Below, piece by piece: positions 378-56,771 of a DNA stretch of 64,000 nt. The notes beneath the pieces were generated by a model, which saw nothing but the letters and a program-made list of their open reading frames with translations, did no database searches and was not told the DNA's origin. Each line of letters begins with the position of its first letter. Within the stretch, counting starts at the first letter, position 1. The translations under genes were made by a program, and so were the position numbers. The DNA is from an uncultured Candidatus Saccharibacteria bacterium (GTDB lineage Bacteria > Patescibacteriota > Doudnabacteria > UBA920), in the NCBI GenBank assembly GCA_964532425.1, contig CAZHIA010000001.1, positions 44,889 through 108,888 of the forward strand, written 5' to 3'.

Positions 378-548
378 ATGGTAACGATGAAAAACTTGCA
401 CCGTCACATACTCCAAACCTGAATTTGGAGGGTACTGGGACTGGCTTCTGGGACAACCGGGCACATCGGAGGAGTGTCCGGTCTTTTTTAATTCCTAGTG
501 GACAGTGATCAGTGACAAGTGGACAGCCTGGCGGGCTGCTGTCGCACG

Positions 549-618
549 CCCCTACGGGAAACAGAGTTGCAGTGTAGGGGCTGCCGACCCTGCCTACCGG
601 CAGGCAGGAGGCGCCCGC
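549..618. repeat. Compound hairpin repeat (family F). Other copies: 10072-10146, and variants at 45366-45418 and 56594-56630.
   Basis: About 90% identical to 10072-10146. GTAGGGG head and a 20-bp CCTGCCTGCCGGCAGGCAGG palindrome. Confidence 0.8.
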
Positions 619-9465: not shown

Positions 9466-9759
9466 AACCTGCCTCCTTGTATGAAGGCATTGTAGCAGAA
9501 AACGGCAATGGAGTGCAGGCCGCTGGCCTGCTGATAAATAAAAAGATTCAAAAATAGAAATATAAAAAATTATAAGAACTGTAGATTATGTAGGTAATAT
9601 CTACCCTACAATTTCTTGGATCTTTCTATTGGCAGGGCACGGCCCTGCACTACAAGAACAGGGGTGCATATGAATACCACTGTAGTACAGGCCCGTGGCC
9701 TGCTCCGTGTAGGGGCAGGCAGGAGGCGCCCTCTTCTTAAAGCACCAAAAACAAATCTC

Positions 9760-10052
9760 AAATTACAAATAATATCCAAATTTCAAATTCGAAATTCTGC
9801 AGATTGGATATTGAATATTGTCTCCCTCCAGGAGATCTACCGCAGGTACGAGGTATTAGGAAGTAGTCTCAAAACCTCCTTATGGCGTCATTCTGAGTCC
9901 TGAGTTCGACGAAGGACGAAGAATCTCATGATCGGTAAGAGATACTTCGGTCGTCTGACTCCCTCAGTATGACGCCGGAGAGGGAGTATCCTGGTTTTGA
10001 GACCGCTTCTAGAATAAATCTTAAAATTTGATGCTTGGGATTTGGAATTTGA
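9760..10052 (+). mobile_element. MITE-like element, copy 1 (~293 bp) with a long internal hairpin (GGCGTCATTCTGAGTCCTGAG...CTCAGTATGACGCC) and AT-rich CAAATTTCAAATTC-type termini
   Basis: About 95% identical to the reverse complement of 44737-45032; a partial core copy lies at 37694-37866. Confidence 0.8.
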
Positions 10053-10453
10053 ACGGCGGGCAGCTGCCGCTTGCCCCTACGGGGACCAGGTCTTTGCAGC
10101 GTAGGGGCCGCCGACCCTGCCTGCCGGCAGGCAGGAGGCGTCCTCTCGCACAAAGCCTAAATCCTAAATTTTAAATCCTTAATCCGTATTGATAGCCAGT
10201 CTCTTCAAAACCCGGTACAATGAGAGCAGGCTGTGACTTAATTTTTCTAGTTTCTATTTTTCTATTTATTATGTTGGCAATTATTTTCGGCCTTGTTGCT
10301 ATCGGAATATTCGTCCTGTTTCGGGAGGCGTTTTCGCATGCACCGACTTCGCCGCAGCGGCCAAAGCCGGCCGCTTCGGGTGATGCCCTCGTTCGCTTCG
10401 GCCTCGGGCAGCGCCGCAAGAGTCAGCGCCGATTGCATATAGAAAAGCCGGCC

Positions 10454-11755: not shown

Positions 11756-11837
11756 ATCACCGCTGAAGGTGCGCTGATTACGACGCTGAAAGGTCGCTTA
11801 TGTAGGGGCGGCCATTGGCCGCCCTGTCCGTGATTCA

Positions 11838-11865: not shown

Positions 11866-11983
11866 GGGATTCAGATCATTTTATCCAAATAAGAGCGTAT
11901 CAGAGTTCATTTCACACTGAATGATTGCATATATAGAGGCGGCCAATGGCCGCCCTATCCGTGAACCAGGAACTATAATAACA

Positions 11984-13072: not shown

Positions 13073-13119
13073 TGTGTCATTCCGGAATCCGCCTCTTGCG
13101 GATATCCGGAATCTACACA
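13073..13119. repeat. hairpin repeat (family A): TGTGTCATTCCGGAATCC...GGATATCCGGAATCTACACA. Other copies at 16109-16156 and 24387-24455.
   Basis: Three copies sharing the GTCATTCCGGAATCC arms with variable loops. Confidence 0.75.
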
Positions 13120-13865: not shown

Positions 13866-15968
13866 ATGTCCGAAGACAATTCTCCTCTTTACACGAAATC
13901 CTATTACGAAGAAGTCCGTAAAATCCACCCCCGCATGGGCAAGAAGTGGACTGCGGACGAAGACCAACAGCTTAAGAATGCCTACCTGCAATTCAAGGCG
14001 CAGCCGTCGGCGAATTTTGACGTGTTCCTGCAGGAACTGGTCGAGCAGTTCGGCAGGGCTTCGGGCGGCATTAAGGCAAGGTTAGCTAAATATTTTGAGG
14101 ACGTCCCGGGTTGGGACTATGGCCGCGATGCGTTCCGGCAGGAACAGCTCAATAAGGAGGCAGAGTCAGCCATTCCCAAAGACGACGAGGAGGTGCTGGT
14201 TCGGGCGTACCGCTTGTATGAAGAATCAAAAAATGAGACGTACATGGCCTTTTTACGGCGCATGTCGGAACGCCTTGGAAATATTGAGGGGAGGCTTATA
14301 ACGCACCGTTTATCGCAATTGGTCGGCGAGGTAAAAAAGTACAATAAGGAAGATGTAGGGGCGGCCAGTGGCCGCCCGCACCCAGGGAGTGATCGCGAAA
14401 AAAATACTCCCGACGTCTCAGATATCGACTTTTCTGGCAACCTTGAAGCAGGCGAGGCCTTGCGCCTTATGGAGCAGACCCGGGAAAATCTGTTTTTGAC
14501 CGGAGAGGCTGGAACCGGGAAATCGACCCTGCTGCAGTTCTTCCGCTATACCACCCAAAAGAACGTGGTGGTGCTCGCTCCGACCGGGGTGGCTGCTTTG
14601 AATGTGGAAGGCCAGACCATTCATTCGTTTTGCGGGTTCGGTCCGGATATTACGGTGCACAAGGTCAAGAAGCTAGGCCCATGGGCGCCCAAGCGCAAGC
14701 TGCTTAATAAGCTCGATGCGATTATTATAGACGAGATCTCCATGGTCCGCGCTGATCTGCTTGATTGCGTGGACAAGTTTTTGCGCATGAACGGGCCGAC
14801 TGGGACGCAAGCCTTTGGTGGCATTCAAATGATTTTCATCGGTGATCTTTATCAACTCCCGCCAGTATCCGCCGAAAGGCCTGTTGGCCAATCAGGCGGA
14901 CCCGCCACAATGTCCCGTTTTGGCGGGGCTTTGGGCGGGGAGAAGGGTTTTTATGGTGATCCTCTCCTGTCCCAATACGCCTCTCCTTATTTTTTTGATG
15001 CCCTTGCATATAAGCAGACGAAGTTCCACCACATCGCCCTCAAGCAAATGTACCGGCAGAAGGACCGGGTGTTCATCGACGTGCTGAATGCGGTGCGCAA
15101 CAATGCAGCCATGCAGGAACATTTGACCGTCTTAAACCAGCGCGCGCAGACTGCGGGTGCCAAGTTCACGTTCGAGAAATTTGCAATTTATTTAACTACT
15201 ACGAACCAACGCGCGCGGCAAGTGAATAATTTTTTCATTGAGCGCTTGAAGGGAGAGCTGAAGACTTTTCAGGGGCGCACTGCCGGAACCTTTGAGGACC
15301 GAGAGCTGCCCACAGACTTGAATTTGCAAATCAAGGTCGGCGCCCAAGTCATGATGCTCAACAACGACCGCAAGAAGCGCTGGGTCAATGGCACTATGGG
15401 GAAGATAGTTGCCATAGGTTTTGGTAATACCGATGTTGAGCAGGCCCGCGGCCTGCCCTCCCGGATGGAGAATGGTAGTGTGGTTTCTTCTCCCCAGGCG
15501 TGGGAAGATGCCCCGCAGGGGCAGAGAGGTCGAACCCTGGAAGCTGAAGATCAATCTCCCGAACTCACCTACGAACCCATCTCTCCATATGACTACCGCC
15601 CGCAATCTTCTGGCATGGTGGTAACCGTGGAATTGGAAACAGGGGAGACCGTAGACGTGACGCCGTTCACCTGGGAGATGCACAAGTTCGTGCTCGACAA
15701 GGAAACGGAGAAAATAGACATTCAGACCACGGGCACGTTCACGCAATACCCGTTCAAGTTGGCTTGGGCCGTGACCATACACAAGGCCCAGGGCAAGACG
15801 TTCGACAAGGTGTATGTGGATCTTTCCACCGGCACCTTCGCGCACGGCCAGCTCTACGTTGCCCTCTCGCGCTGCCGCACTCTGGAAGGTCTCTTCCTCC
15901 GCCGTCCCATCACCCCCGCCGACATCCTCCTCGACCAGCGCATTGTCCAATTTCTGAATTCGTTATAA
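13866..15968 (+). CDS. PIF1-family DNA helicase (paralog 2) with an ~200-aa N-terminal extension containing a Myb/SANT-like motif, plus two internal insertions
   Basis: Core ~65% identical to paralog 1 (GEAGTGKST ... TIHKAQGKTFDKVYVDLSTGTFAHGQLYVALSRCRTLEGL). N-terminus has GKKWTADEDQQLKNAYLQF...GGIKARL. Confidence 0.8.
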   Translation: MSEDNSPLYTKSYYEEVRKIHPRMGKKWTADEDQQLKNAYLQFKAQPSANFDVFLQELVEQFGRASGGIKARLAKYFEDVPGWDYGRDAFRQEQLNKEAESAIPKDDEEVLVRAYRLYEESKNETYMAFLRRMSERLGNIEGRLITHRLSQLVGEVKKYNKEDVGAASGRPHPGSDREKNTPDVSDIDFSGNLEAGEALRLMEQTRENLFLTGEAGTGKSTLLQFFRYTTQKNVVVLAPTGVAALNVEGQTIHSFCGFGPDITVHKVKKLGPWAPKRKLLNKLDAIIIDEISMVRADLLDCVDKFLRMNGPTGTQAFGGIQMIFIGDLYQLPPVSAERPVGQSGGPATMSRFGGALGGEKGFYGDPLLSQYASPYFFDALAYKQTKFHHIALKQMYRQKDRVFIDVLNAVRNNAAMQEHLTVLNQRAQTAGAKFTFEKFAIYLTTTNQRARQVNNFFIERLKGELKTFQGRTAGTFEDRELPTDLNLQIKVGAQVMMLNNDRKKRWVNGTMGKIVAIGFGNTDVEQARGLPSRMENGSVVSSPQAWEDAPQGQRGRTLEAEDQSPELTYEPISPYDYRPQSSGMVVTVELETGETVDVTPFTWEMHKFVLDKETEKIDIQTTGTFTQYPFKLAWAVTIHKAQGKTFDKVYVDLSTGTFAHGQLYVALSRCRTLEGLFLRRPITPADILLDQRIVQFLNSL

Positions 15969-16033: not shown

Positions 16034-16180
16034 CCCCTTCTTCCCCTTGGCTTCCATTAACCCCCCTTTACCCCCTTAAACCCCTTTTCACCCTTTCTTC
16101 CCTCACTCTGTGTCATTCCGGAATCCGAGTGCAGCCGAGGATGTCCGGAATCCAGTTTATTTCCCCATAAATTCTCTTAT

Positions 16181-16214: not shown

Positions 16215-16302
16215 AACAACAAACATGCCAGTCGAGTCTCCCGTAAATAAAATAATAACTTAAACCAAAGCTCCAAGCCGCCGTTTTCGGCGGCTTTGTT
16301 TT
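16215..16302 (+). ncRNA. candidate small RNA (~85 nt) defined by a promoter and terminator
   Basis: Consensus promoter at 16181-16208. Terminator GCCGCCG-ttttc-GGCGGC followed by TTTGTTTT at 16277-16302. Contains only a 19-codon ORF with no RBS. Confidence 0.4.
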
Positions 16303-16489
16303 CCGGGCCTGCTCTCCTTCTACCGAAGGTCCAACGTAGCCTCGTGCGAAGTTGGAATAGGAGGAGTGCCCGCCGACTCGTCCGCCGTAGCTTTAGCGAA
16401 GGGGGAAGGCGGGGGAAGTGGTACGGGGTCTGTAGTGCCCCTCTCCCTTTCAAGGGAGAGGTAGGGTGAGGGTATTAATTAAAAATCCT

Positions 16490-16840
16490 ATGACAAAAAT
16501 TCAAAAAATCTGGCTCTCTATCTTCATTGCCATGTTTGCATTGCCTGAGATTTTATGGAGTCCAGTAATAAATCTGATTTACGAATTTTTACAAAATACT
16601 AATAAAGTTCAACCCTGGCGTGATAATTTTTTGATGAATAGCGATAACATTGCCTGGCTTAGTGTAATATACCTTATTCAATTGGTGGGATTGCTGGGGT
16701 GTTTGATGTTGATTATTTCACTTAAGCCAAAGAATATAGCTATGTGGTTAGTAAACTCGGTATTGATAATATGCAGTCTCACAGTTGCATTCTTGTTATT
16801 TGCCTCATTGACAATTGGGGGTCATGGAATTGGTTTCTAA
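16490..16840 (+). CDS. hypothetical small membrane protein (AT-rich gene)
   Basis: Three or four hydrophobic helices. Low GC compared with the flanks. ATG 16490; the track calls GTG 16466. Confidence 0.5.
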   Translation: MTKIQKIWLSIFIAMFALPEILWSPVINLIYEFLQNTNKVQPWRDNFLMNSDNIAWLSVIYLIQLVGLLGCLMLIISLKPKNIAMWLVNSVLIICSLTVAFLLFASLTIGGHGIGF

Positions 16841-16883
16841 CATACTCTAAAGATGCCCGTTAAATATAAGTATTCTAAATTTT

Positions 16884-19718: not shown

Positions 19719-19727
19719 TCTTATACG

Positions 19728-19772
19728 TCCTATTTGTCCTATTAGACCTATCTGCCCTATAGGTCCTATTCA
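19728..19772. repeat. period-9 tandem array (5 units, GTCCTATTn-like) directly after the hydrolase stop
   Basis: tcctatttg tcctattag acctatctg ccctatagg tcctattca. Confidence 0.75.
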
Positions 19773-19812
19773 AAATGCGCTATAATTAAAGCAAATTATA
19801 TTTAAACTTTTT

Positions 19813-20463
19813 ATGCAAGAAAAAGGATTCAGCGGGGCAGAGGCAAGCCTTGAGACCGAGTCTAAATTGTTTGGGGTTATAACGGAAGACCAAGCACGGG
19901 CTATTTGCGGCTCGCCGGAAAAGTTCGAGCAGGTAAAAGATGACTTTGTATCTCATGGCCAGCATGAATACTTGCTCAAAGGCGGTGGCAAGCTGGTCTT
20001 TCATCCCCGGGAGAACGAATGGACCATGAGTGGTTATGGAGACCGCAGTGATATTAAAGACGTCTTAGAAGCGGTGGAAGCGGGCTATACCGGTTTTATA
20101 GACGGCGAGCATGGGACTATGGAATATATAGACGGTGCGGACATTTCCAAAGCCCCTGATCGGGAAAAAATTTACAGCCTGGCTAGTCGCGTGGGGGTGG
20201 AGATCTCACTGTTCAACCGCGCCTTCCTGCAGGTCATAGAAGTTCGTCCGCATTTGAAGTTTAAAATTTATTCCAGCGGGTTTGGTGGGGAGCATAGCAT
20301 TTTGGAAGTTCAAAACGCGATCAAGGCAGGTAAGCCACTCCTGGCCGAAGATGCCGAAGAGCGGGTCAAGGACAGCATTGCCAGAATGGACAGTTTCCAA
20401 AGAATGTATGGCGAACCACTTTACGACCCCAACTCCATCGACAACCGTCCTAAGAAGAAATAA
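19813..20463 (+). CDS. hypothetical protein (216 aa)
   Basis: Clean ORF; no recognisable domain. Confidence 0.5.
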   Translation: MQEKGFSGAEASLETESKLFGVITEDQARAICGSPEKFEQVKDDFVSHGQHEYLLKGGGKLVFHPRENEWTMSGYGDRSDIKDVLEAVEAGYTGFIDGEHGTMEYIDGADISKAPDREKIYSLASRVGVEISLFNRAFLQVIEVRPHLKFKIYSSGFGGEHSILEVQNAIKAGKPLLAEDAEERVKDSIARMDSFQRMYGEPLYDPNSIDNRPKKK

Positions 20464-20654
20464 CCTCCCTGTTTTAAATGTAATGCAGGCTCTTGGCCTG
20501 CTTGCAGGTGCAGTACTCTCCTCCTGGGATAGGAGGAGTACCCGCCACAGGCGGGGGAGGTGGTATAGAGAAGTTGCGATGTAAATGTAGTGCAGTCCCT
20601 TGGCCTGCCTGCTTGTAGGGAACGGTTTGAAACCGTTCCCAACGGATCCAAGAT

Positions 20655-20885
20655 ATGTCCAAACATTCCAAAGAATCAGAACAATATCTGCGCGATATGC
20701 AGGACTGGCAGAACAAGCAATACCTCCCCGGGGCCTATACCGGCCACGAGATGCCTTTTGCAGTTAAACAATTGGGTAAGAAAAAATGGTTCCGCATTTG
20801 GACAGTTTTCTATCTTATTGTCTTTTTTGTCTTGGTCATTTTTGGTTTGGTGCAAATGGCAATTTATATTCTGCATTCGCGATAG
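20655..20885 (+). CDS. hypothetical small membrane protein (76 aa, one TM)
   Basis: ORF with a C-terminal hydrophobic helix; preferred over the overlapping 20590 ORF, which reads through repeat sequence. Confidence 0.4.
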   Translation: MSKHSKESEQYLRDMQDWQNKQYLPGAYTGHEMPFAVKQLGKKKWFRIWTVFYLIVFFVLVIFGLVQMAIYILHSR

Positions 20886-20958
20886 CTTTATGGCATTTTT
20901 GTCATCAATTTGGTATTTTTTCCTTAGCCCGCCTAACGGGGTTCGGGCAGCGAGGAAA

Positions 20959-21489
20959 ATGGTCAAGCGCATTCATAAGCGGTTGTTGCGGCTGATTTTT
21001 AATCCTACATATTGGGCAGCAGTGGATTACTTCCATATGGATGATGAAGAGGAAGAAAAGATTGTTAGCCTCTTGCGGTTTAATGCCCTTGCCATGACCC
21101 AACTTATGTTGGATTTTGCCGCAGATTCAGTGCATAACCCGGATCAGCGTGAGTTGTACCGCGAGACTAAGAACTGTTTGATTTCGGAATTCTTGGCAAC
21201 GCTTCAGCCGGACGATGACGAAGAGGGGGACGGAGATGCCGGATGGCGACAAATGGTAGCCATCCAGTACGAGCAATTGCGGCAGACGCATGATGCTTTA
21301 AAAGACCAACTGCCCGATCCTAAGCTTATCAACAACTGGGTTCTCGTTACCACGCTGAATACGTACATTAATATTCGGGAGAAAGAACCGGACTCTGAAG
21401 ATGACTTGTTCGAACTGCTTTATAATACCTTTGGAGAAATGTCCTCCGATGTCCTTGATCCTGTCATTAGCGAACTAAAACGGATTTGA
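20959..21489 (+). CDS. hypothetical acidic protein
   Basis: GAGGA immediately upstream of ATG 20959. The 5' part of the track's ORF 20590.. lies in a repeat, so it is trimmed. Confidence 0.45.
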   Translation: MVKRIHKRLLRLIFNPTYWAAVDYFHMDDEEEEKIVSLLRFNALAMTQLMLDFAADSVHNPDQRELYRETKNCLISEFLATLQPDDDEEGDGDAGWRQMVAIQYEQLRQTHDALKDQLPDPKLINNWVLVTTLNTYINIREKEPDSEDDLFELLYNTFGEMSSDVLDPVISELKRI

Positions 21490-21644
21490 GATTTGAGCTG
21501 TTTCCCTCTTCTCCTTCCAGGAGAAGATGTCCGCCTCCGGCGGACAGATGAGGTGATTATGTAGTGCAAGCCATTGACCTGCTGTTTCCTGTAGGGGCGG
21601 ATAGTATCCGCCGAAATCAAATAGTGTCATCCGGAATAAAAATA

Positions 21645-21674
21645 CCAGCACCAAAATTTGGTGCTGGCTTTTGT
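21645..21674. terminator. bidirectional terminator
   Basis: CCAGCACC-aaaattt-GGTGCTGG followed by CTTTTGT. Confidence 0.7.
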
Positions 21675-21699
21675 AATGGCACACGAGTGCCGTTTTGTG

Positions 21700-22779
21700 T
21701 CAGACTGTTGCACGTTTGAGAGTAGCAGGCAGTGGCTCCATTTCCATGACCGCTTTGCGGAGTGCTTCGGCTGCACGCTCGGGCGGCAGGGGGTTAATGT
21801 AGTACCCGGTGCTGAATTCGAATCCGGCAACCTTGGTGATGCGCGGAATAATGCGCAGGCGCCAGCGGAAGAATTCCTCGGGCTTGCAGTACACGTTGGG
21901 CGGGGCTTCCTCGAGGAACATATTAAACGGCGGCAAGTACTTGAGGACCTTGTCCAGGGCCTTGAACGACATACTCATCATGGTGGCCAGTTCCTGGAAC
22001 TGGGCGCGGTTGTCGGTCAGCCGGGCCGTACTCTTCAGGGGCAGGATGGTCATTTCGAACGGGACCTTGCTGGCATACGGGCAGTAGCAGAGGAAATTGC
22101 CGCTGTGGCGCACGACCAGTTTGTGCTGGTCGGCCTGGTTGATGGCGTCCTGGAAAATGTCGCGGTTGTGCTGCTGCTGGTATTCGCGGCAGCGGAACAG
22201 CCGGTGATTGATCTTCTCCGGAACATCCGGCAAGGCAATAATCTGCCAGTGCGGATGCTCCAGGCTGGCGCCGGCTTCGCTGCCGAAGTTCTTGAATAGC
22301 TGGACGTAGCGGATCCGCTCGTGGCTGTACAGCGCGGAGAAGCGGTCGTCGGCCACCTGCAGGACGTTGAGGAGTTTCCAGACCGGCATGGCCGAGATTT
22401 CCTCGTTGTGCACGGCGGTCTCAATAATGACTTCGTGCGCGCCGAACGCGTTGGTAATAACCGAACTGCCGGCATCCTGAATGACGAACGCGGACCGCTC
22501 TTCGGGCGTGGCGGCAGGGTACTTGTTGGGCACGACGCGGAGCGTCCACTTCTGGCCGGGTTCGCCGAGCCGGATAATTTCCGGCGGGGGAACCATGTCC
22601 TCGTTACCGGTACAGAACGGGCACTTGGGATCGTGGCACGGCTTTTCGAGCTTGGCTTCGACATCAACTTTCTTTGCAAAATCGTCGGGGCGCATGGCCC
22701 GGTCGGTTGCAACAATGACCGGAGTCTCGCTGATCAATGATCGCCTGATATCTGACATACAGGCCTCCTTTGCACCCAT
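21700..22779 (-). CDS. galT: galactose-1-phosphate uridylyltransferase (HIT superfamily)
   Basis: CPFCTGNE zinc motif and the SLEHPHWQI HPH active-site motif. Confidence 0.8.
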   Translation of the reverse strand: MGAKEACMSDIRRSLISETPVIVATDRAMRPDDFAKKVDVEAKLEKPCHDPKCPFCTGNEDMVPPPEIIRLGEPGQKWTLRVVPNKYPAATPEERSAFVIQDAGSSVITNAFGAHEVIIETAVHNEEISAMPVWKLLNVLQVADDRFSALYSHERIRYVQLFKNFGSEAGASLEHPHWQIIALPDVPEKINHRLFRCREYQQQHNRDIFQDAINQADQHKLVVRHSGNFLCYCPYASKVPFEMTILPLKSTARLTDNRAQFQELATMMSMSFKALDKVLKYLPPFNMFLEEAPPNVYCKPEEFFRWRLRIIPRITKVAGFEFSTGYYINPLPPERAAEALRKAVMEMEPLPATLKRATV

Positions 22780-22835
22780 TGTAGTCCAAAGCTAACTTAA
22801 TAGCAAAGGCTGGTGAAATAACCTTCTCCACATAG

Positions 22836-23200
22836 GTGTAGTGCAGGCCCTCTTGTCCGCCGAAGCCTTGGCGAAGGTGGATGACCTGCTCAGCCCCTGT
22901 AGGGGCGGATACCATCCGCCCGGGATTAAAGCAGACGAGGTAGAATGGTAAGTTTAAGCTGTCAGTAAATGTAGTGCAGGCCCTCGGCCTGCTGGGAGAT
23001 GGCGTTTCTCCCTCTCCTTATTCGCAGATCTGCCATAGTTTTAACGTAGGAGGACATAGGAGAGGATGAAGGTGAGGTTATTGACACAGAGAGTACTGAA
23101 GGTAGAGGTTGCAGTCACCCCCTCTCCTTGCATAGGAGAGGGTAGGGGTGAGGTTATTTGGTGTATGTAGTGCAGGCCCTTGGCCTGCAAGGTGCAGGAG
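22836..23200. repeat. cluster of hairpin repeats: family D (TGTAGTGCAGGCCCTTGGCCTGC; copies at 22838, 22968 and 23165), family E (22897) and CTCTCC/GGAGAG palindromes (23108-23160)
   Basis: Several dispersed families sit together here. D copies elsewhere: 9632, 9681, 20478, 20585, 21560, 46459 and 46517. Confidence 0.8.
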
Positions 23201-23272
23201 TTTAAATCCAATTCGCCATCATCTTCAAAACAAGTTACAATTAAGACAAGAAATTCTTAATTTGAAACACAT

Positions 23273-23536
23273 ATGGACCAAGTTTATAACAATTGCCAGA
23301 GCTGCGGCATGCCGCTCAAACGCGATCCTCAAAACGGGGGAACGAATGCGGATGGCAGCAAATCGACCATGTACTGCAGCTATTGTTATGTGAATGGCCA
23401 GTTTATGAATCCCACCATGACCGCCCAAGAGATGCAGGTCTTCTGCAAAGGCAAGTTAAAAGAAATGGGGTACCCTGGTTTTGTTGCCTCATTCCTCACT
23501 TGGAACATCCCCCGCCTCGCCCGGTGGAAGAAGTAA
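23273..23536 (+). CDS. zinc-ribbon domain protein (87 aa)
   Basis: CQSCGMPL...CSYCYVNG, i.e. two CxxC pairs. Confidence 0.55.
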   Translation: MDQVYNNCQSCGMPLKRDPQNGGTNADGSKSTMYCSYCYVNGQFMNPTMTAQEMQVFCKGKLKEMGYPGFVASFLTWNIPRLARWKK

Positions 23537-23798
23537 TCTGCATTTTCTCCTCTCCTTATGAGGAGAGGGATTAAGGGAGAGGTTGCAGTCACCCCCTCTC
23601 CTTGCATAGGAGAGGGTAGGGGTGAGGTTATAAACCCTCCTCTCTTTGCTCGAAGATCCAACGCAGCCTCGCGCGAAGTTGGATAAAGAGAGGGGTTAGG
23701 GGTTCCGTTGCATTTCCCCCTCTCTTTGTCTAAAGAGAGGGGTTAGGGGTGAGTTTAAAGCTAGGCACTATTTACTCGTTACTATTTACTCGTTCCCA

Positions 23799-24344
23799 AT
23801 GACCTGGAAAACCCACGCCGCCATCGGCGCCAATAGTATTTGGCTTGTTCCATTTTTCAGCACGGTCGACCAGACCATGCTTATGTATTTAATCGTGGCC
23901 GTAGTGGCCAGCCTTTTGCCAGACATCGACGCTGTCACCGCCAAAATCCATTACATTGGCGGGGGAGCGCTTGGTATTTTCCGCGGCATGTTCCGGGGCA
24001 AGCTCTTTCACCACCGTGGTATGATGCATTCCGTCTTCGTGGCACTGTTGTTCTCTATGATAATCTGGATCTTTTCGCGTCACACGTACCCAATGCTCGG
24101 CGCGGTCTTCTTTGTTGCCTACCTGAGCCACTCCGTCATTGACGGCTTTAACACTTCGGTGGGATTTCTCTACCCCTTCATCCCCAAACGCTTCGCCCTC
24201 GTCCCCAAACCCCTCCAATCTCACGTCGGCGGCCTCACCGACAACCTCTTCCTCTTCATCGGCCTCCTCGGCCTATTGCTATTCTTTATGACCTTCCGCG
24301 ATCAGCTTCTATTAAACAACCTCTCCACTCTCCCGAAATATTAG
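23799..24344 (+). CDS. YdjM-family membrane-bound metal-dependent hydrolase
   Basis: LLPDID, HHRGMMHS and HSVIDGFN motifs with TM helices. Confidence 0.6.
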   Translation: MTWKTHAAIGANSIWLVPFFSTVDQTMLMYLIVAVVASLLPDIDAVTAKIHYIGGGALGIFRGMFRGKLFHHRGMMHSVFVALLFSMIIWIFSRHTYPMLGAVFFVAYLSHSVIDGFNTSVGFLYPFIPKRFALVPKPLQSHVGGLTDNLFLFIGLLGLLLFFMTFRDQLLLNNLSTLPKY

Positions 24345-24561
24345 CTGTAGTATTTCCTCTCCTTGTCCAAGGAGAGGTGGAATGAGGTAATCCCCATTGT
24401 GTCATTCCGACCTACGACAGTGTCCGCCGTAGCTTTACGCGAAGGCTGGAGCCGGAATCCATGCCATACAGAACATCCTACCCGCCCATTTGGCGGGTTT
24501 TTTAAATGGGTGTAAAATACTTATAGAATGGCTGTTTTTGATAGCTTAATTACAGAAATGC

Positions 24562-27507: not shown

Positions 27508-27516
27508 GCAAGGTTT

Positions 27517-37682: not shown

Positions 37683-37693
37683 GGAGTAGTTTT

Positions 37694-37866
37694 AAAATCT
37701 CCTTGTGGCGTCATTCTGAGTCCTGAGCCTGCCAACTCCTCGAGTCTGAGCGATCTCGGAATCGAAGACCAACAGGCAGGTTCGAAGAAGGACGAAGAAT
37801 CCCATTATCGGTAATAGATGCTTCGGTCATCTGATTCCCTCAGCATGACGCCGGAGAACAGATATT
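37694..37866 (+). mobile_element. partial (core hairpin) copy of the MITE-like element, carrying a 53-bp internal insertion
   Basis: GGCGTCATTCTGAGTCCTGAG...CTCAGCATGACGCC, homologous to the cores at 9885-9978 and 44800-44905. Confidence 0.7.
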
Positions 37867-37897
37867 TTTGTTACGAAACTATCTCTAGGCTTATTGT

Positions 37898-38829: not shown

Positions 38830-38939
38830 AAAAATAAAAAGATAGAAAAATAGAAAGATGGAAATTAGAAAGATTTAAAATGATGGATTCCGGATGGCAC
38901 TTCGCTCCGCTTCGTTGCCTCCGGAACGACACAGAGAAC

Positions 38940-44657: not shown

Positions 44658-44736
44658 CAACATGGAGAGTGATCACTCGTAATTGTTTTCTTGCGAATAG
44701 CATCTGTCTAGGGCAGATTGTGGTTGCCTGTTACTA

Positions 44737-45032
44737 AAATTCCAAATTTCAAGCATCAAATCACAAATAAACTCGAAGCGGTCTCAAAACCAGGACACTC
44801 CCTCTCCGGCGTCATACTGAGGGAGTCAGACGACTGAAGTATCTCTTACCGATCATGAGATTCTTCGTCCTTCGTCGAACTCAGGACTCAGAATGACGCC
44901 ACAAGGAGGTTTTGAGACTACTTCCTAATACCTCGTACCTGCGGTAGATCTCCTGGAGGGAGACAATATTCAATGTACAAATCCTTTTTGGACTATTGAA
45001 TTTGAAATTTGGATATTATTTGTGATTTGAGG
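44737..45032 (-). mobile_element. MITE-like element, copy 2 (inverted relative to copy 1)
   Basis: Reverse complement is ~95% identical to 9760-10052. Confidence 0.8.
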
Positions 45033-45311
45033 CTTGTTACTTCTATAAGCGGGCGGATCCAGCCTTCGCGTAAAGCTCCCTCCTTCGCTTAAGCTACGGA
45101 GGACAAGACGGCGGACTCAGTAAATCTCGTCCCTACACTGCATGGAACGCTTGACTGAAGTTAAAAACAGCCTTAGACTAAAGGAACTATGAATAAACTT
45201 CGCGCATCCAACATGCTGGCATCCAGCAATAAGTTCTATTTTGCGGCCTCTGGCAAGAGGCTGGTTTTTGGGTGCCGAAGGCTGCGCGTTCCATAATTCC
45301 TTCGACGTCTG

Positions 45312-45342: not shown

Positions 45343-45464
45343 GTGGAGGTTTAGGTGAATGTTACCATGTAGGGCCGGTCGCGCCTGCCTGCCGGTAGGC
45401 AGGACCGGCCCCTACACAGTTACCCATGGTACAAAACCACCGGACCTTTCTATAGGAGGACTCT

Positions 45465-46385: not shown

Positions 46386-46662
46386 ATGTGTTCGTGATGC
46401 TTTGACGGGTACTTGTCTCTAAGACGGTGCCCGTCATTTTTAATCCATTGGAGAGGATTGTAGTGCAGGGCCACGCTAAGCGTGGCAGGGCCTTGCTCTG
46501 CCCAACATTCAACTATGCGGCAGGCCGAGGGCCTGCGCTACATTATTGGCAATCAGCGGACAAGGAACGGTCGCGACCGTTCCCTACAGGCAGACCCCCG
46601 GGCTTGCGCCACAGCCTTACAATAGACATCAAGGCCAGCACTGTATCTTCGTCTTACACAAC

Positions 46663-49829: not shown

Positions 49830-49971
49830 TGTCATTGCGAGCTTCGGGGCTTTGACCGAAGCGCGGCAATCTTTCCATTTAAAGAGATCCCTCGGATGCA
49901 CTCGGGATGACGCCAAAGGCATCAGATTGCTTCGTAAGCAAGCCCAAGCCCTTGCTTCCTCGCAATGACAT
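49830..49971. repeat. nested hairpin repeat (family B): GTCATTGCGAG ... GCAATCT..AGATTGC ... CTCGCAATGAC. Other copies at 53660-53756, 55538-55627 and 56469-56631.
   Basis: Four copies with conserved outer and inner stems and variable loops. Confidence 0.8.
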
Positions 49972-50021: not shown

Positions 50022-50555
50022 ATGAAAGTCAATCATACTGAAATCCAAATCATCCAAGACGACATTACCCGGCTTGCGGTCGACTGCATCGTCAATGCCG
50101 CGAACAAAAAATTGTCAGGCGGGGGAGGGGTGGACGGCGCCATCCACCGCGCGGCGGGGGATGAGCTGACCAAGGCCTGTTTGCGTTTGGGCGGGTGCAA
50201 TACCGGGGAGGCCAAGATTACGCTCGGCTACAATTTGCCGGCCAAGTTCGTTATCCATACGGTTGGGCCGGTCTATGGGGCTATGGACGGCATGGAAGCG
50301 TCCTATTTGGAAGACTGCTATAAAAATTCCCTGGCCTTGGCCGATGTGAAGCATATCAAGACCATTGCTTTTCCTTCTATTTCCACCGGCGCATACGGAT
50401 TTCCCATCGAGGAAGCGGCACCCATCGCACTCGAGAGTGTGCGGGAATATATAGAGGAGCATCCGGACACAGGACTTAAGCAAATTATCTTTGTCTGCTT
50501 TGACAGCACGGATGCGGGGGTATATAGAAGGACGGCGGGAGAAATGGGGATGTAG
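50022..50555 (+). CDS. macro-domain protein (ADP-ribose binding / O-acetyl-ADP-ribose deacetylase family)
   Basis: IQDDITRLAVDCIVNAANKKLSGGGGVDGAIHRAAG. Confidence 0.85.
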   Translation: MKVNHTEIQIIQDDITRLAVDCIVNAANKKLSGGGGVDGAIHRAAGDELTKACLRLGGCNTGEAKITLGYNLPAKFVIHTVGPVYGAMDGMEASYLEDCYKNSLALADVKHIKTIAFPSISTGAYGFPIEEAAPIALESVREYIEEHPDTGLKQIIFVCFDSTDAGVYRRTAGEMGM

Positions 50556-50584
50556 AGACAGGTCGTGACCTGTCCGTATAGGGG

Positions 50585-51118
50585 ATGAATATGTTTCAAA
50601 GAAAAGTCCATCGTTTGCAAGAATACGACTATTCCCAGCCAGGGTATTATTTTGTTACCCAGTGCGTACAAGATCGGAGATGTTGTTTGGGAGCGATGGC
50701 AGGAGGGGAGGTAATGTTGAATGAATACGGGAAGATCGTGCAGCGACAATGGCAATGGTTGGCCGAACATTTTCCAAATGTACAATTAGATGAATTTCAG
50801 ATCATGCCCAACCACGTGCATGGGATTGTGATCATAACCCCGGCGGGAAACGGCCAGGGTGGTGTGTTTGTAGGGGACGGTCGCGACCGTCCCGTACAGA
50901 AACCGCTTCCCGATTTAATCGGCGCATTTAAAACTACATCGTCAAAACTAATCCATCGTGCAGGTTTTACCGATTTCTCTTGGCACCGGTCCTTCTACGA
51001 CCACATCATCCGTAAAGACGAATCGTTAGACAAAATCAGGGAATACATTCGTACCAATCCCAAGCAGTGGGAATTGGATGAGGAGAATCCAAAAAAATTT
51101 AATAATGTTATTTCGTAG
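50585..51118 (+). CDS. REP-associated tyrosine transposase (RAYT; IS200/IS605 TnpA-like HuH Y1 transposase)
   Basis: HuH motif MPNHVHGIV. Catalytic-Tyr region SWHRSFYDHIIR. A 30-bp REP (GTAGGGGACGGTCGCGACCGTCCCGTACAG) lies in frame at 50870-50899 and another copy overlaps the stop codon (51115-51144). Confidence 0.8.
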   Translation: MNMFQRKVHRLQEYDYSQPGYYFVTQCVQDRRCCLGAMAGGEVMLNEYGKIVQRQWQWLAEHFPNVQLDEFQIMPNHVHGIVIITPAGNGQGGVFVGDGRDRPVQKPLPDLIGAFKTTSSKLIHRAGFTDFSWHRSFYDHIIRKDESLDKIREYIRTNPKQWELDEENPKKFNNVIS

Positions 51119-51160
51119 GGGCGGGTCGCGACCCGCCCGTACAGAAAAAGACGACAAAAT

Positions 51161-55311: not shown

Positions 55312-55642
55312 ATAATATCCTTGATGGAAATCTTCCTGAGGTATGCGCTCAGCGTTATATCCGCGTAGAAATCCGCGATAGATCAGCGGTTAGATCTATC
55401 GGTATTTTGGTCGCTTGCGAAATTAAAGTGGGTTGTGGATAATAAGTATTCTTGCGAGTTTTCGGGCACTTGACAGGTTTTTGAAAGCGGTTTAATATGT
55501 GTATGTAATACACTAATTGGACGTCAGACAGCGTAGGTTGTCATTGCGAGTGAAGCCGAAGCAATCTTCTGATGGGGGAAAGATTGCTTCGGCTAAAAGA
55601 TAAAGCCCTTTTAGGCTCGCAATGACAAGGAGAAGAGAAGAC

Positions 55643-56402: not shown

Positions 56403-56771
56403 GCCCCCTATATTTTTTTCTTCTTAATTAGTGTAAAAAATACACCATATGTAAACTATCCATTGGGTATGTCATTGCGAGGAGTACAATCGATCGAAGA
56501 TCCGCCATATCCGTCTTGGCGGAGGAGGCGGACAAAGCAATCTTTATTTTTTACTCTTTGTTCATGGGTAGGAAAGATTGCCACGCTCGGATGCACCTGC
56601 CTACCGGCAGGTAGGCTCGCTCGCAATGACAGATAAGTCGCAGGTTTTGCCAGGGAGCCTTTGGGCCACTGCTTGATGTCGCGTTGGGCAGCGGTATCCA
56701 TGGGCTCCCCGGCAAGCCCTGCCTCAAAAGCAGAGCCTGAAGCAGTACCTTGTTTGGCATAAGGAGGAACT

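What the first reader, a model, noticed from the sequence alone, without database searches (positions are those of the whole stretch)
22780..23798. Dense mosaic of modular hairpin-repeat families in intergenic DNA
At least eight repeat families populate almost every intergenic region above 100 bp:
- A: GTCATTCCGGAATCC
- B: GTCATTGCGAG with a GCAATCT/AGATTGC inner stem
- C: the MITE core
- D: TGTAGTGCAGGCCCTTGGCCTGC
- E: the REP
- F: the CCTGCCTGCCGGCAGGCAGG compound
- G and H
- CTCTCC/GGAGAG palindromes

Families share modules. For example CGAGTGCAGCCGAGG forms the loop of both A2 (16109-16156) and B2 (53660-53756), and CCGTAGCTTTACGCGAAGGCTGGA occurs at 24432 and, inverted, at 45060. The heads also fall into two groups, GTCATT and GTAG.

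The 22.8-23.8 kb stretch around a small zinc-ribbon gene is a hotspot with more than ten copies. This points to very active, recombining hairpin elements, possibly mobilised by more than one HuH enzyme.
Basis: seen in the sequence. Interest (0 to 1): 0.6.

Follow-up and report, generated by a model that had tools for sequence, protein, structure and literature searches.

The report
Dense mosaic of REP-type hairpin repeats
The spaces between genes in this uncultured bacterium are packed with small hairpin-forming DNA repeats, and nearly all of them belong to repeat classes already described in other bacteria, so the finding is real and striking but mostly explained.

Summary
The window carries about 28 GTAG-headed palindromes, about 12 GTCATT-headed elements, 11 CTCTCC/GGAGAG elements and 7 copies of a small nested hairpin. 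They are concentrated in non-coding DNA and far exceed chance. The 22.8-23.8 kb stretch holds 11 host units plus 2 nested hairpins.

Almost every family maps to a published class:
- D, E and F are GTAG-tagged REPs.
- A, B and C are CGTC/TGTC-tagged REPs with unusually long, structured loops.
- The CTCTCC/GGAGAG elements are the G/C-rich intrastrand triplex motif (TM/BoxC).

The window encodes one REP-associated tyrosine transposase (50585-51118). It has REPs on both sides and one in frame, which is the hallmark of TnpA_REP subclass 2.4. Each GTAG family here matches the REP carried by a different homologue of this enzyme elsewhere.

No enzyme for the GTCATT families was found, in line with the literature. 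"Almost every intergenic region" is overstated: 19 of 32 carry a catalogued element. Evidence for recent activity is limited to a few near-identical copies.

The possibly new parts are a nested hairpin with an invariant loop (GTAGCTTTAGCGAA) and the strict placement of passengers in loops. Overall this is a new member of known kinds, in a lineage with no close relatives.

The parts
526..616 (.). F compound: tail-to-tail pair of GTAG REPs (left arm 526-555 on minus, right arm 574-616 on plus). The right arm carries the inner palindrome CCTGCCTACCGGCAGGCAGG (589-608).
9510..9531 (+). D-type GTAG REP with a degenerate tag (GGAG)
9632..9653 (-). D-type GTAG REP with a compensatory stem change (GGGC/GCCC)
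9682..9731 (+). D REP (9682-9703) followed directly by a truncated F-type REP (9709-9731)
9745..10055 (+). C1: element of about 300 bp. Its core, 9866-10008, is a head-to-head dimer of CGTC-tagged hairpins (GCGTCATTCTGAG...AGAATCTC / ...CTCAGTATGACGCC) with outer inverted repeats GGTCTCAAAACC.
   Evidence: (z -5.7)
10055..10143 (.). Second F compound (left arm 10055-10080 on minus, right arm 10101-10143 on plus; inner palindrome 10116-10135)
11802..11824 (+). E1 GTAG REP GTAGGGGCGGCCATTGGCCGCCC, identical to the in-frame REP of RAYT homologue P0007
11838..11865 (+). E2 GTAG REP, 28/28 identical to the copy inside the RAYT gene
11933..11955 (+). E1 REP with a degenerate tag (ATAG)
13075..13115 (+). 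A1: TGTC tag, ATTCCGGA stem, inner hairpin, TCCGGAAT, tail CTA
14355..14377 (+). E1 REP lying in frame (VGAASGRP) in a PIF1-like helicase ORF
16111..16154 (+). A2: TGTC-tagged hairpin with loop CGAGTGCAGCCGAGG and tail CCA
   Evidence: z -3.2
16300..16423 (+). Compound P element carrying two nested M hairpins (16330-16356 and 16381-16412)
16440..16473 (+). P: triplex motif CCTCTCCCT / AGGGAGAGG / GGTGAGGGT, 9/9 triads
20480..20501 (+). D REP (tag GTAA)
20518..20564 (+). P triplex motif with an 18-nt hairpin (CCCGCC ACA GGCGGG) in the linker, 8/8 triads
20587..20640 (+). D REP (20587-20608) followed by E4 REP GTAGGGAACGGTTTGAAACCGTTCCC (20615-20640)
21507..21554 (+). P triplex motif with the hairpin GTCCGCC TCC GGCGGAC in the linker, 9/9 triads
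21561..21637 (+). D REP (21561-21582), E3 REP (21591-21612) and an A fragment (21625-21637), all upstream of terminator 21645-21667
22838..22889 (+). Hotspot: D REP whose loop carries an M hairpin (22856-22881)
22899..22921 (+). Hotspot: E3 REP GTAGGGGCGGATACCATCCGCCC
   Evidence: z -3.4
22971..22992 (+). Hotspot: D REP
   Evidence: z -3.7
23011..23078 (+). Hotspot: P triplex motif with a 39-nt loop, 8/8 triads
23089..23154 (+). Hotspot: half P (23089-23110) plus a full P (23120-23154, 9/9 triads). This is the upstream copy of the 69-bp direct repeat.
   Evidence: z -4.5
23167..23188 (+). Hotspot: D REP matching the consensus exactly
23549..23628 (+). Hotspot: P (23549-23583) plus P (23594-23628). 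This is the downstream copy of the 69-bp direct repeat.
23639..23705 (+). Hotspot: P with an M hairpin (23657-23683) in its loop and a degenerate third strand
   Evidence: (z -3.5)
23717..23756 (+). Hotspot: P triplex motif CCCCTCTCTTT / AAAGAGAGGGG / GGGGTGAGTTT, 11/11 triads
24356..24389 (+). P element, 7/8 triads
24400..24461 (+). A element with an M hairpin (24423-24450) in its loop, lying between the stop codon and terminator 24480-24498
37690..37895 (+). C2: diverged copy of the C core with a 53-nt hairpin inserted in the loop of its left arm
38884..38931 (-). A-type TGTC-tagged hairpin on the minus strand
44725..45055 (-). C3: about 95% identical to C1 over about 300 bp, in inverted orientation
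45058..45103 (-). Two adjacent M-type hairpins (45058-45080 and 45077-45103)
45369..45415 (.). Double-foot GTAG...CTAC REP with the F palindrome (45384-45403) in its loop
   Evidence: z -4.1
46460..46541 (.). Head-to-head pair of D REPs (46460-46501 on plus, 46520-46541 on minus)
46564..46587 (-). E2 REP upstream of a PD-(D/E)XK_3 gene
49830..49970 (.). B1: head-to-head dimer TGTCATTGCGAG...GCAATCT / AGATTGC...CTCGCAATGACA
50552..50578 (+). E2-type REP directly upstream of the RAYT gene. It marks the left limit of homology with the Logan contig.
50585..51118 (+). RAYT / TnpA_REP gene (HuH motif HVH; YDH tyrosine motif) with an in-frame E2 REP at 50870-50897
51115..51142 (+). E2-type REP overlapping the RAYT stop codon
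53660..53756 (.). B2 head-to-head dimer whose left loop contains CGAGTGCAGCCGAGG
   Evidence: z -4.2
55539..55627 (.). B3 head-to-head dimer
56470..56631 (.). B4 head-to-head dimer with an extra hairpin in the left arm and the F palindrome (56596-56615) in the right arm

Best explanation
The non-coding DNA of this genome is colonised by several classes of small, non-autonomous, hairpin-forming repeats. These classes are already known from other bacteria.

1. D, E1-E4 and F are GTAG-tagged REPs, single or in inverted pairs. They are the substrates of REP-associated tyrosine (HuH/Y1) transposases. One such enzyme, of the subclass 2.4 type, is encoded at 50585-51118 with E2 REPs upstream, in frame and downstream. 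By analogy with E. coli TnpA_REP and IS200/IS605, the enzyme would bind the folded single-stranded hairpin, read the 5' GTAG, and cut and rejoin single-stranded DNA exposed at the replication fork.
2. A, B and C are CGTC/TGTC-tagged REPs: the tag, a stem beginning with AT, and head-to-head dimers. Here their loops are enlarged into second-tier hairpins. What mobilises them is unknown.
3. [quoted passage not shown] They consist of a pyrimidine arm, a purine arm and a G/T/A third strand that mirrors the purine arm.
4. M is a small hairpin with an invariant loop that rides inside the loops of the other elements.

Clusters such as 22.8-23.8 kb would arise in three ways: repeated insertion next to or into the loops of earlier hairpins, local duplication, and recombination between copies.

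Shown: the families, their structures, their class assignments and the REP-RAYT associations.
Inferred: the transposition chemistry, loop-targeted insertion, and which enzyme moves which family.
For: Families exceed chance and are concentrated in non-coding DNA.

GTAG class:
- GTAG is the most enriched 4-mer at stem feet.
- Stems are 7-9 bp with loops of 3-4 nt.
- DNA folding z-scores are -3.4 to -4.1.

RAYT:
- Pfam Y1_Tnp, E = 3e-6.
- NCBIfam REP_Tyr_transpos matched in two stretches.
- A profile of 24 homologues hits PDB 4ER8, E. coli TnpAREP, at E = 5e-4.
[quoted passage not shown] This is the feature Quentin et al. 2018 give as unique to subclass 2.4 (PMC6006769).
- The in-frame REP is identical to the intergenic copy at 11838.

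Each GTAG family is carried by some RAYT homologue elsewhere:
- E2 in L318-L321.
- E1 in L475, identical sequence.
- E3 in L474.
- D in L395 (upstream, in frame and downstream of the gene) and in L411 (upstream).

The unit REP-RAYT-REP recurs about 95% identical in a different gene context, and homology starts at the upstream REP.

CGTC class: tag, AT-first stem, CCA tail and head-to-head dimers match PMC3733652 (window).

Triplex class:
- 8 perfect Y-R-T motifs against 0 in 20 controls.
- The third strand covaries with the purine arm across six different stem sequences.
- Near-identity to E. coli TMECO sequences listed in PMC4666352.

M: four stem pairs covary around a fixed loop in 32 unrelated contigs.

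Nesting has precedent: GTAG REPs inside small palindromes and loops up to 27 bp.
Against: - No transposition event is observed directly.
- No close relative exists for empty-site comparison.
- The RAYT scores below the NCBIfam cut-off (45 against 80 bits).
- The link to 4ER8 is weak at the sequence level, and a single-sequence search found nothing.
- In the other RAYT loci examined, the in-frame palindrome had no extra copies within 10 kb. Carrying the palindrome therefore does not by itself imply REP proliferation.
- The D copies are diverged, at a mean of 84% identity.
- A, B and C fail the published loop length of 4-5 nt.
- Compound elements do not fold better than shuffles (z -0.2 to -0.9).
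- Part of the hotspot is a local duplication, not independent insertions.
- The strand bias cannot be assigned to replication rather than transcription.
Confidence: 0.72

Rival explanations
1. The hairpins are mainly host-selected structural elements in transcripts, acting as 3'-UTR stabilisers, processing sites or insulators. They would be kept by selection and spread by recombination, not by a transposase.
For: - Several clusters lie between a stop codon and a canonical terminator and lack T-runs of their own: 11802-11955 before 11988-12019, 21507-21637 before 21645-21667, and 24356-24461 before 24480-24498.
- Almost all single units are co-oriented with the predominantly plus-strand genes.
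- REPs are reported to sit downstream of ORFs and to work as RNA elements (PMC3733652).
Against: - The largest cluster (22838-23188) lies between divergent genes and upstream of the only promoter-like site for the Zn-ribbon gene, so it may not be transcribed with either gene.
- The same short sequences occur in unrelated genomes and phages.
- The GTAG families track RAYT genes.
- TM motifs showed no promoter or terminator activity in E. coli (PMC4666352).
- This reading does not exclude a mobile origin.
Confidence: 0.2
2. The 22.8-23.8 kb hotspot is mostly the product of local tandem duplication, slippage and gene conversion at structure-prone DNA, not of many independent insertions.
For: - 69-bp direct repeats at 93% identity, with a 48-nt identical core, bracket the Zn-ribbon gene.
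- The P units are arranged head to tail in one orientation.
- Triplex motifs are associated with local instability, small deletions and rearrangements in E. coli (PMC4666352).
Against: - The hotspot also holds four GTAG REPs of two families and two M passengers, and these are not part of the duplication.
- The six full P units have four different stem sequences, so they are not recent copies of one another.
Confidence: 0.35
3. A second, dedicated HuH/Y1 transposase mobilises the GTCATT-headed (CGTC/TGTC) families.
For: - By analogy with GTAG REPs, the tag and loop are conserved while the stem covaries (ATTCCGGA / ATTGC / ATTCT). This is the pattern expected for a protein-recognised hairpin.
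- The rest of the 334,850-bp source contig and genome could not be inspected.
Against: - Only one Y1 gene is in the window by six-frame profile search.
- No other transposase family appears in any ORF.
- No recurrent nuclease or transposase lies within 1.5 kb of B elements in 115 loci.
- RAYT homologues are absent from those loci.
- Di Nocera et al. found no transposase linked to CGTC repeats.
Confidence: 0.1
4. The pattern is chance similarity among unrelated single-copy palindromes, or an assembly artefact.
For: - Some two-copy 'families' are short.
- A has only two exact copies, and its pattern with 3 mismatches is not significant.
Against: - Shuffle controls give 0 expected for D, F and the triplex motifs.
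- The same families occur in independent public contigs.
Confidence: 0.01

Closest known systems
GTAG-tagged REPs / REPINs with their RAYT (TnpA_REP), specifically subclass 2.4 of Quentin et al. 2018 (PMC6006769); also Di Nocera et al. 2013 (PMC3733652)
   Same: - An unpaired 5' GTAG at the foot of a G/C-rich stem, with GGG as the first pairs.
- Stems of 7-9 bp and short loops.
- Singles and inverted pairs.
- Intergenic and occasionally in-frame intragenic copies.
[quoted passage not shown]
- A double-foot form is present (45369-45415).
   Different: - The host is a deep-branching, apparently Patescibacteria-like lineage, whereas subclass 2.4 was described mainly in Cyanobacteria and Bacteroidetes.
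- At least five GTAG families coexist in 64 kb with only one RAYT visible.
- The RAYT unit appears in more than one copy and context.
- The E2 3' foot reads GTAC, not CTAC.
CGTC-tagged REPs (Di Nocera et al. 2013), including Neisseria dRS3 and Rickettsia RPE-4/6
   Same: - Tag CGTC or TGTC.
- Stem starting with AT (ATTCCGGA, ATTGC, ATTCT).
- CCA tail in A.
- Head-to-head dimers with tags outside in B and C.
- No transposase nearby.
   Different: - Loops are 9-45 nt and themselves structured, against the published 4-5 nt.
- In B and C the basal stem is only 5 bp before an internal loop.
- C is embedded in an element of about 300 bp with extra outer inverted repeats.
G/C-rich intrastrand triplex motif (TM, TMECO; BoxC/PIT) of Holder et al. 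2015 (PMC4666352)
   Same: - The same three-block layout and nearly the same sequence. Window 16440: CCTCTCCCTTTCAAGGGAGAGGTAGGGTGAGGGT. E. coli: CCCTCTCCCTTGAGGGAGAGGGTTAGGGTGAGGGT.
- G*G, A*A and T*A triads, and short turns.
   Different: - Four copies carry inserts of 18-39 nt in the loop or the linker. These exceed the 1-6 nt of the published search, yet three of the four keep perfect triads (23639-23705 has a degenerate third strand).
- The copies form head-to-tail arrays in one orientation, not inverted pairs.
Mosaic intergenic repeat clusters: E. coli BIMEs and the Neisseria intergenic mosaics mentioned in PMC3733652
   Same: Several short repeat families are interleaved in the same intergenic regions, with variable composition from site to site.
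   Different: - Different families are involved.
- Here elements are also nested inside one another's loops, not only placed side by side.
MITEs
   Same: C has terminal inverted repeats, is 145-300 bp long, non-coding, and present in three copies, two of them about 95% identical.
   Different: - No target-site duplication could be defined.
- Its core is a CGTC-REP dimer, not a deletion derivative of a recognisable insertion sequence.

Membership tests
GTAG-tagged REP | Unpaired GT[AG]G tetranucleotide at the 5' foot of the stem-loop | tested here: met
   GTAG is the most enriched 4-mer 5' of perfect stems of 8 bp or more: 10 against 0.54 expected. About 28 units are listed. A few have degenerate tags (GGAG, GTAA, ATAG).
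GTAG-tagged REP | Stem 5-13 bp, loop 2-20 nt | tested here: met
   D and E1-E4 have stems of 7-9 bp and loops of 3-4 nt. F, the D-plus-M compound and the double-foot form have loops of 22-30 nt because a second hairpin sits inside them.
GTAG-tagged REP | Multi-copy, mostly intergenic, often in inverted dimers | tested here: met
   Tail-to-tail pairs at 526-616, 9632-9703 and 10055-10143; a head-to-head pair at 46460-46541.
GTAG-tagged REP | Association with a RAYT gene flanked by the same REP (REPtron) | tested here: met
   E2 in the window. D, E1 and E3 in other genomes only.
GTAG-tagged REP | Cleavage or mobilisation by the RAYT | not testable with these tools
   Needs biochemistry or population data.
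RAYT / TnpA_REP subclass 2.4 | HuH motif and catalytic tyrosine in a Y1 fold | tested here: met
   HVH at residues 77-79 and SFYDH at 136-140, conserved in 24 homologues. Pfam Y1_Tnp. The profile hits 4ER8 at E = 5e-4. No structure was predicted.
RAYT / TnpA_REP subclass 2.4 | [quoted passage not shown] | tested here: met
   50870-50897 encodes VGDGRDRPV. The same position holds a palindrome in homologues.
RAYT / TnpA_REP subclass 2.4 | Score above the curated NCBIfam REP_Tyr_transpos cut-off | tested here: not met
   45.2 bits against a cut-off of 80, with the match split in two by the insert.
RAYT / TnpA_REP subclass 2.4 | Placement in the subclass by phylogeny or MCL clustering with the published set | not tested
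The assignment rests on the diagnostic in-frame REP and the REP type.
CGTC-tagged REP | Terminal CGTC (or TGTC/CCTC) tag | tested here: met
   A and B carry TGTC; C carries CGTC.
CGTC-tagged REP | Stem of 8-9 bp beginning with A-T pairs | tested here: inconclusive
   A has the 8-bp stem ATTCCGGA/TCCGGAAT. B and C have only 5 bp (ATTGC, ATTCT) before an internal loop.
CGTC-tagged REP | Loop of 4-5 nt | tested here: not met
   Loops are 18-44 nt in A and 9-30 nt in B and C, and contain a second hairpin.
CGTC-tagged REP | 3-nt tail, mostly CCA; head-to-head dimers predominant | tested here: met
   The CCA tail is present in 3 of 4 full A copies. B1-B4, C1 and C3 are dimers with the tags outside.
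Intrastrand triplex motif (TM) | Three consecutive blocks (pyrimidine, purine, third strand) able to form G*G-C, A*A-T and T*A-T triads over 6-15 positions with at most 1 mismatch | tested here: met
   8 motifs have 8-11 perfect triads and 1 has 7/8. All are on the plus strand. 0 were found in 20 Markov controls.
Intrastrand triplex motif (TM) | Connecting loops of 1-6 nt | tested here: inconclusive
   Met by 16440, 23120, 23594, 23717 and 24356. 23549 has a 7-nt linker. 20518, 21507, 23011 and 23639 have inserts of 18-39 nt.
Intrastrand triplex motif (TM) | Actual triplex formation | not testable with these tools
   The folding tool models duplex pairing only. In E. coli the triplex formed in vitro as a single strand and was not detected in vivo.
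MITE (element C) | Terminal inverted repeats, target-site duplication, and a related autonomous element | tested here: inconclusive
   Inverted repeats and three copies were found. No target-site duplication could be defined, and no parent element is in the window.

The most novel reading that the evidence does not exclude
The M hairpin may be a previously undescribed, very widely spread element. It has a 6-bp covarying stem around the invariant loop GTAGCTTTAGCGAA, preceded by GCTTG. It occurs in bacteria, phage-like contigs and giant-virus MAG contigs.

In this genome it occurs mainly as a passenger in the single-stranded loops of other repeats: D, the triplex motifs and A. Together with the F palindrome and the C2 insert, this would mean that hairpin loops are the preferred landing sites of single-strand-specific mobile hairpins. 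The mosaic would then grow by hairpin-in-hairpin insertion, possibly driven by a still autonomous REP-RAYT-REP unit.
Probability: 0.2. Interest if true: 0.6.

Novelty: new member of a known kind. Interest (0 to 1): 0.4.

Why it matters
- Three repeat systems usually studied separately and in Proteobacteria or Cyanobacteria coexist at very high density in a deep-branching uncultured lineage of a group expected to have compact genomes. The three are GTAG REPs with their tyrosine transposase, CGTC REPs with no known enzyme, and triplex motifs.
- Each GTAG family matches the in-frame REP of a different RAYT lineage. This gives a simple sequence rule for pairing REP families with their enzymes in metagenomes.
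- The three-way covariation in the triplex motifs is maintained even when 18-39 nt are inserted in the turns. This is independent comparative support that the three-block arrangement itself is under constraint.
- For annotation, several ORF starts in this window run into repeats and are probably miscalled.

Tried and rejected
- Source genome: exact-protein look-ups failed. The protein database shows only that the source is an NCBI contig of 334,850 bp.
- Genome-collection scan: spent on MetK. It returned only relatives at 63% identity or less, without these repeats, so no genome-wide copy counts were possible.
- Strain comparison for insertion polymorphism: impossible, because the best non-self homologue of the neighbouring GalT-like gene is 44% identical. 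The 120 metagenome contigs carrying D show no synteny with the window.
- Rfam: nothing but a SAM riboswitch at gathering thresholds. Only two sub-threshold sRNA matches at 16151-16303, between A2 and the first compound P element, in a relaxed search of 16000-24600.
- Literature string searches for GTCATTGCGAG and for the M loop found nothing relevant.
- PDB search with the single RAYT sequence found nothing. A profile was needed.
- Enzyme linked to GTCATT elements: clustering ORFs within 1.5 kb of 115 B-bearing loci gave only phage structural proteins. A RAYT profile search of all fetched loci hit only 2 D loci.
- Coding/non-coding test on fetched loci using stop-free frames was too blunt to be useful, with a background of 0.9.
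- Reading the CTCTCC/GGAGAG units as simple palindromes or as terminators was rejected. They have a conserved, covarying third block and no T-run.
- Arguing for an RNA role from G-T against A-C mismatches in D stems was abandoned, because the few mismatches are mixed.
Full report
**1. What the window is**

The window is 64 kb at about 54% G+C, with a low-G+C island at 24.5-36 kb. Most genes are on the plus strand, and GC skew is positive almost throughout.

The best relatives of MetK are Candidatus Parcubacteria MAGs at 63% identity. Homologues of the transposase are mostly from Patescibacteria. Other genes have no close relative at all: the best non-self GalT-like protein is 44% identical among 5.8 billion proteins. 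Protein look-ups show the window comes from an NCBI contig of 334,850 bp that I could not retrieve.

**2. Checking the observation**

Every named motif is present and above chance:
- D: 9 sites against 0 expected.
- GTCATTGCGAG: 8 sites, as four inverted pairs, against 1.2 expected.
- The F palindrome: 4 sites against 0 expected.
- The shared loop CGAGTGCAGCCGAGG is in A2 and B2, plus two variants.
- CCGTAGCTTTACGCGAAGGCTGGA is at 24427 and, inverted with 3 mismatches, at 45058.
- The exact A string occurs only twice. Three further variants exist.

Unbiased measures agree:
- 12-mers present three or more times cover 8.4% of non-coding DNA, 0.4% of coding DNA and 0.02% of shuffled sequence.
- There are 116 perfect hairpins of 8 bp or more, against 40-61 in Markov controls. 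72 of them lie in the roughly 15% of non-coding DNA.
- GTAG is the most enriched tetranucleotide at the 5' foot of stems, 10 against 0.54 expected.

A hand-curated, script-verified catalogue lists about 28 GTAG units, 5 A, 4 B dimers, 3 C, 11 CTCTCC/GGAGAG units and 4 copies of a palindrome private to the low-G+C island. The 7 M hairpins were located separately.

Nineteen of 32 intergenic regions longer than 100 bp carry at least one catalogued element, so 'almost every' is too strong.

The hotspot holds 3 D, 1 E3, 6.5 CTCTCC/GGAGAG units and 2 nested M hairpins. The 11 host units cover 421 of 776 non-coding bases. A 69-bp direct repeat at 93% identity (23089-23157 and 23563-23631) brackets the Zn_ribbon_2 gene, so part of the count is a local duplication.

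**3. The GTAG families and their enzyme**

D, E1-E4 and F have an unpaired GTAG, then a stem of 7-9 bp starting with G-C pairs, and a loop of 3-4 nt. They fold significantly better than shuffles as single-stranded DNA, with z from -3.4 to -4.1. This is the definition of GTAG-tagged REPs (PMC3733652).

The ORF at 50585-51118 is a Y1/HuH protein:
- Pfam Y1_Tnp.
- NCBIfam REP_Tyr_transpos, below cut-off because the match is split in two.
- A profile of 24 homologues finds E. coli TnpAREP 4ER8 as the only meaningful PDB hit, at E = 5e-4.

The gene is preceded by an E2-type REP (50552-50578) and ends in another (51115-51142). It contains a third in frame (50870-50897, peptide VGDGRDRPV) between the HuH and tyrosine motifs. 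That in-frame copy is identical to the intergenic copy at 11838-11865.

Quentin et al. 2018 describe this as the unique mark of TnpA_REP subclass 2.4: REPs flanking the gene and inserted in frame between HuH and Y, a G-C-rich stem foot, and double-foot REPs (PMC6006769). The feature is therefore known.

**4. One REP family per RAYT lineage**

Homologues carry a palindrome at the same protein position. At the DNA level:
- P0019 and P0087 carry the 28-bp perfect palindrome GTAGGGACAGGTCGCGACCTGTCCCTAC, which is E2 type.
- P0007 carries GTAGGGGCGGCCATTGGCCGCCC, identical to window E1, both in frame and flanking the gene.
- P0078 carries TGTAGGGGCGGATATTATCCGCCCCTACA, which is E3 type.
- In metagenome contig L395, a RAYT of the same family has D-type REPs upstream, in frame (inverted) and downstream. 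In L411, a D REP sits just upstream of the gene.

Each GTAG family of the window is therefore the cognate REP of some RAYT lineage. This makes several RAYTs in this genome plausible.

The database records a 94% paralogue on the same contig. That paralogue has the E2 peptide, so it does not explain D, E1 or E3. Only one RAYT lies in the window.

The unit from upstream REP through gene to downstream REP recurs about 95% identical on a Logan contig, next to a different gene. Homology begins at the upstream REP. This is the best sign that the unit itself has moved.

**5. The GTCATT families**

A, B and C share three features:
- the tag TGTC or CGTC;
- a stem that starts with AT and covaries between families (ATTCCGGA/TCCGGAAT, ATTGC/GCAAT, ATTCT/AGAAT);
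- a tail of CCA or CT(C/T).

B and C are dimers with the tags outside.

This matches the CGTC-tagged REP superfamily, whose tag is often TGTC, whose stems begin with A-T, whose tails are CCA and whose dimers are head-to-head. No transposase is associated with that superfamily.

The misfit is the loop. It is 9-45 nt and folded here, against 4-5 nt in the published families.

The B pattern is widespread. It hit at least 120 IMG/VR stretches, many with several copies, typically [CT]GTCATTGCGAG(GAGCGNAGCGACG or CGAAGCG)AAGCAATCTC. The 'shared module' between A2 and B2 is therefore the conserved loop of one superfamily, not an exchange between unrelated families.

I found no candidate enzyme:
- No other transposase-like ORF in the window.
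- No RAYT in the B loci.
- No recurrent nuclease within 1.5 kb of B sites, only phage structural genes.

**6. The CTCTCC/GGAGAG elements**

These are not plain palindromes. Each has a pyrimidine arm, a purine arm and a third block that mirrors the purine arm, with G opposite G and A or T opposite A.

A generic search finds 8 motifs with 8-11 perfect triads, all on the plus strand. It finds none in 20 Markov controls.

The third block covaries with the stem:
- AGGGAGAGG with GGTGAGGGT
- AGGAGAGGG with GGGTGAGGT
- AAAGAGAGGGG with GGGGTGAGTTT
- AGGAGAAGA with AGATGAGGT
- AGGAGGAG with GAGGTGGT

This is the G/C-rich intrastrand triplex motif (TM/TMECO, BoxC) of Holder et al. 2015. That motif is found in more than 260 genomes, forms a triplex in vitro as a single strand, and is linked to local instability (PMC4666352). 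Window copy 16440 is almost identical to an E. coli copy. The motif with its tail hit at least 120 IMG/VR stretches, against about 0.003 expected by my own estimate.

The new detail here is that three copies keep perfect triads although 18-39 nt, usually a small hairpin, sit in the loop or the linker.

**7. Nesting and the M hairpin**

Passengers always lie in loops or linkers:
- M lies in D (22856), in triplex motifs (16330, 16381, 23657) and in A (24423).
- The F palindrome lies in REPs (589, 10116, 45384) and in B4 (56596).
- A 53-nt hairpin lies in the left loop of C2.

M has a covarying outer stem (CCTCC/GGAGG, TCCAAC/GTTGGA, CCGCC/GGTGG) and a conserved interior GTAGC-N4-GCGAAG.

Its core CCGTAGCTTTAGCGAAGG occurs in 32 IMG/VR stretches, against about 2 expected by my own estimate. 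These include giant-virus MAG contigs. The four flanking pairs are 84-91% paired, against 45-73% when partners are shuffled, with several pair types. I found no paper and no Rfam family for it.

Precedents for nesting exist: GTAG REPs inside small palindromes, and loops up to 27 bp with inner pairing. The principle is therefore not new.

Whether passengers insert preferentially into loops, or only loop insertions survive, is open. Compound elements do not fold better than shuffles (z -0.2 to -0.9).

**8. Activity, orientation and function**

Recent events are few:
- E2 at 11838 equals the copy at 50870.
- P at 23120 equals P at 23594.
- E1 at 11802 and 14355 differ at one base.
- C1 and C3 are about 95% identical over 300 bp in inverted orientation.
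- The RAYT unit occurs in two contexts.

The nine D copies average 84% identity. One has a compensatory double change.

The D pattern is absent from IMG/VR. It is present in at least 120 metagenome stretches of 39-72% G+C with no synteny to the window.

Nearly all single GTAG REPs and all triplex motifs are on the plus, G-rich strand. This fits insertion into one template strand, as for IS200/IS605 relatives. About 80% of genes are on that strand too, so the two explanations cannot be separated.

Several clusters lie between a stop codon and a canonical terminator and have no T-run of their own. They are probably transcribed. The largest cluster lies between divergent genes and upstream of the only promoter-like site.

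**9. Verdict**

- These are REP-type elements, and a HuH enzyme is involved for the GTAG families.
- More than one RAYT is plausible for those families.
- Nothing supports a HuH enzyme for the GTCATT families.
- 'Very active' is not shown.

Nearly all components belong to described classes, including the in-frame REP in the transposase gene. What may be new is the host lineage, the density and degree of nesting, the REP-to-RAYT matching rule, and the M hairpin.

Noticed in passing
window 5622-5735: SAM-I riboswitch (Rfam RF00162, 55.5 bits) directly upstream of the metK gene at 5772-6812.
   Followed up: no
window 24562-36600: Low-G+C island (38-43%) encoding an SNF2-type helicase, an N6/N4 DNA methylase, a ResIII helicase and a DUF4357/RAMA protein. 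It looks like an acquired restriction or defence island. It has its own palindrome family, TGCTTATTCGCACGAATAAGCA, at 32829, 35431, 36230 and 36562. Two of these copies bracket a small ArsR-type HTH gene (36301-36561).
   Followed up: partly
window 13866-15968 and 10220-11755: Two PIF1-like helicase paralogues sit in REP-rich surroundings. The longer one carries an E1 REP in frame (14355-14377, VGAASGRP) in its N-terminal extension. It also has a 34-residue insertion relative to its paralogue at residues 336-369.
   Followed up: partly
window 23089-23157 and 23563-23631: 69-bp direct repeats at 93% identity, with a 48-nt identical core, bracket the Zn_ribbon_2 gene (23273-23536). The gene could be lost or could have been captured by recombination between them.
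   Followed up: partly
window 13813-13852, 15962-16037, 19720-19750; 9752-9795, 44745-44768, 47069-47173, 52907-53001; 5515-5595, 38826-38882; 23767-23794: Short-period A/T-rich repeats in intergenic DNA: nonamer TCCTATCCA arrays after three genes, heptamer-like CAAATTT arrays, ATAGAAAAATAAAAAG blocks and a 14-mer doublet. They are reminiscent of cyanobacterial short tandem repeats (from my own knowledge).
   Followed up: no
window 55622, 53738, 37818, 38880, 16466, 46546, 20590: Mechanical ORF starts run into repeat elements. Examples: the ATG at 55622 lies in the right arm of B3, the ORF at 37818 overlaps C2, and the ORF at 38880 overlaps a minus-strand A copy. These starts, and perhaps the whole 37818 ORF, are probably wrong.
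   Followed up: partly
L476 (Logan SRR11567528_1684035) 700-1291: A copy of the REP-RAYT-REP unit, about 95% identical, lies next to a Peptidase_S51 gene instead of the Macro-domain gene. Similarity to the window starts at the upstream REP.
   Followed up: yes
L395 1-150 (minus strand) and L411 330-420: Metagenome contigs found through the D REP also carry a triplex motif with a GTCCGCC...GGCGGAC hairpin in its linker, and a B-type dimer. The same combination of families therefore recurs in other organisms.
   Followed up: partly
L329, L336, L338, L347, L351: The M core occurs with A/T-rich covarying stems (ATATT...AATAT) in contigs labelled as giant-virus MAGs.
   Followed up: no
window 21700-22779 and whole window: The organism has no close relative in a 5.8-billion-protein collection. 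The next best hit to the GalT-like protein is 44% identical.
   Followed up: partly
L201-L315: B-type GTCATTGCGAG elements in IMG/VR sit largely in a group of related phage-like contigs, next to capsid-like and other structural genes. This suggests phages as carriers of this repeat class.
   Followed up: partly
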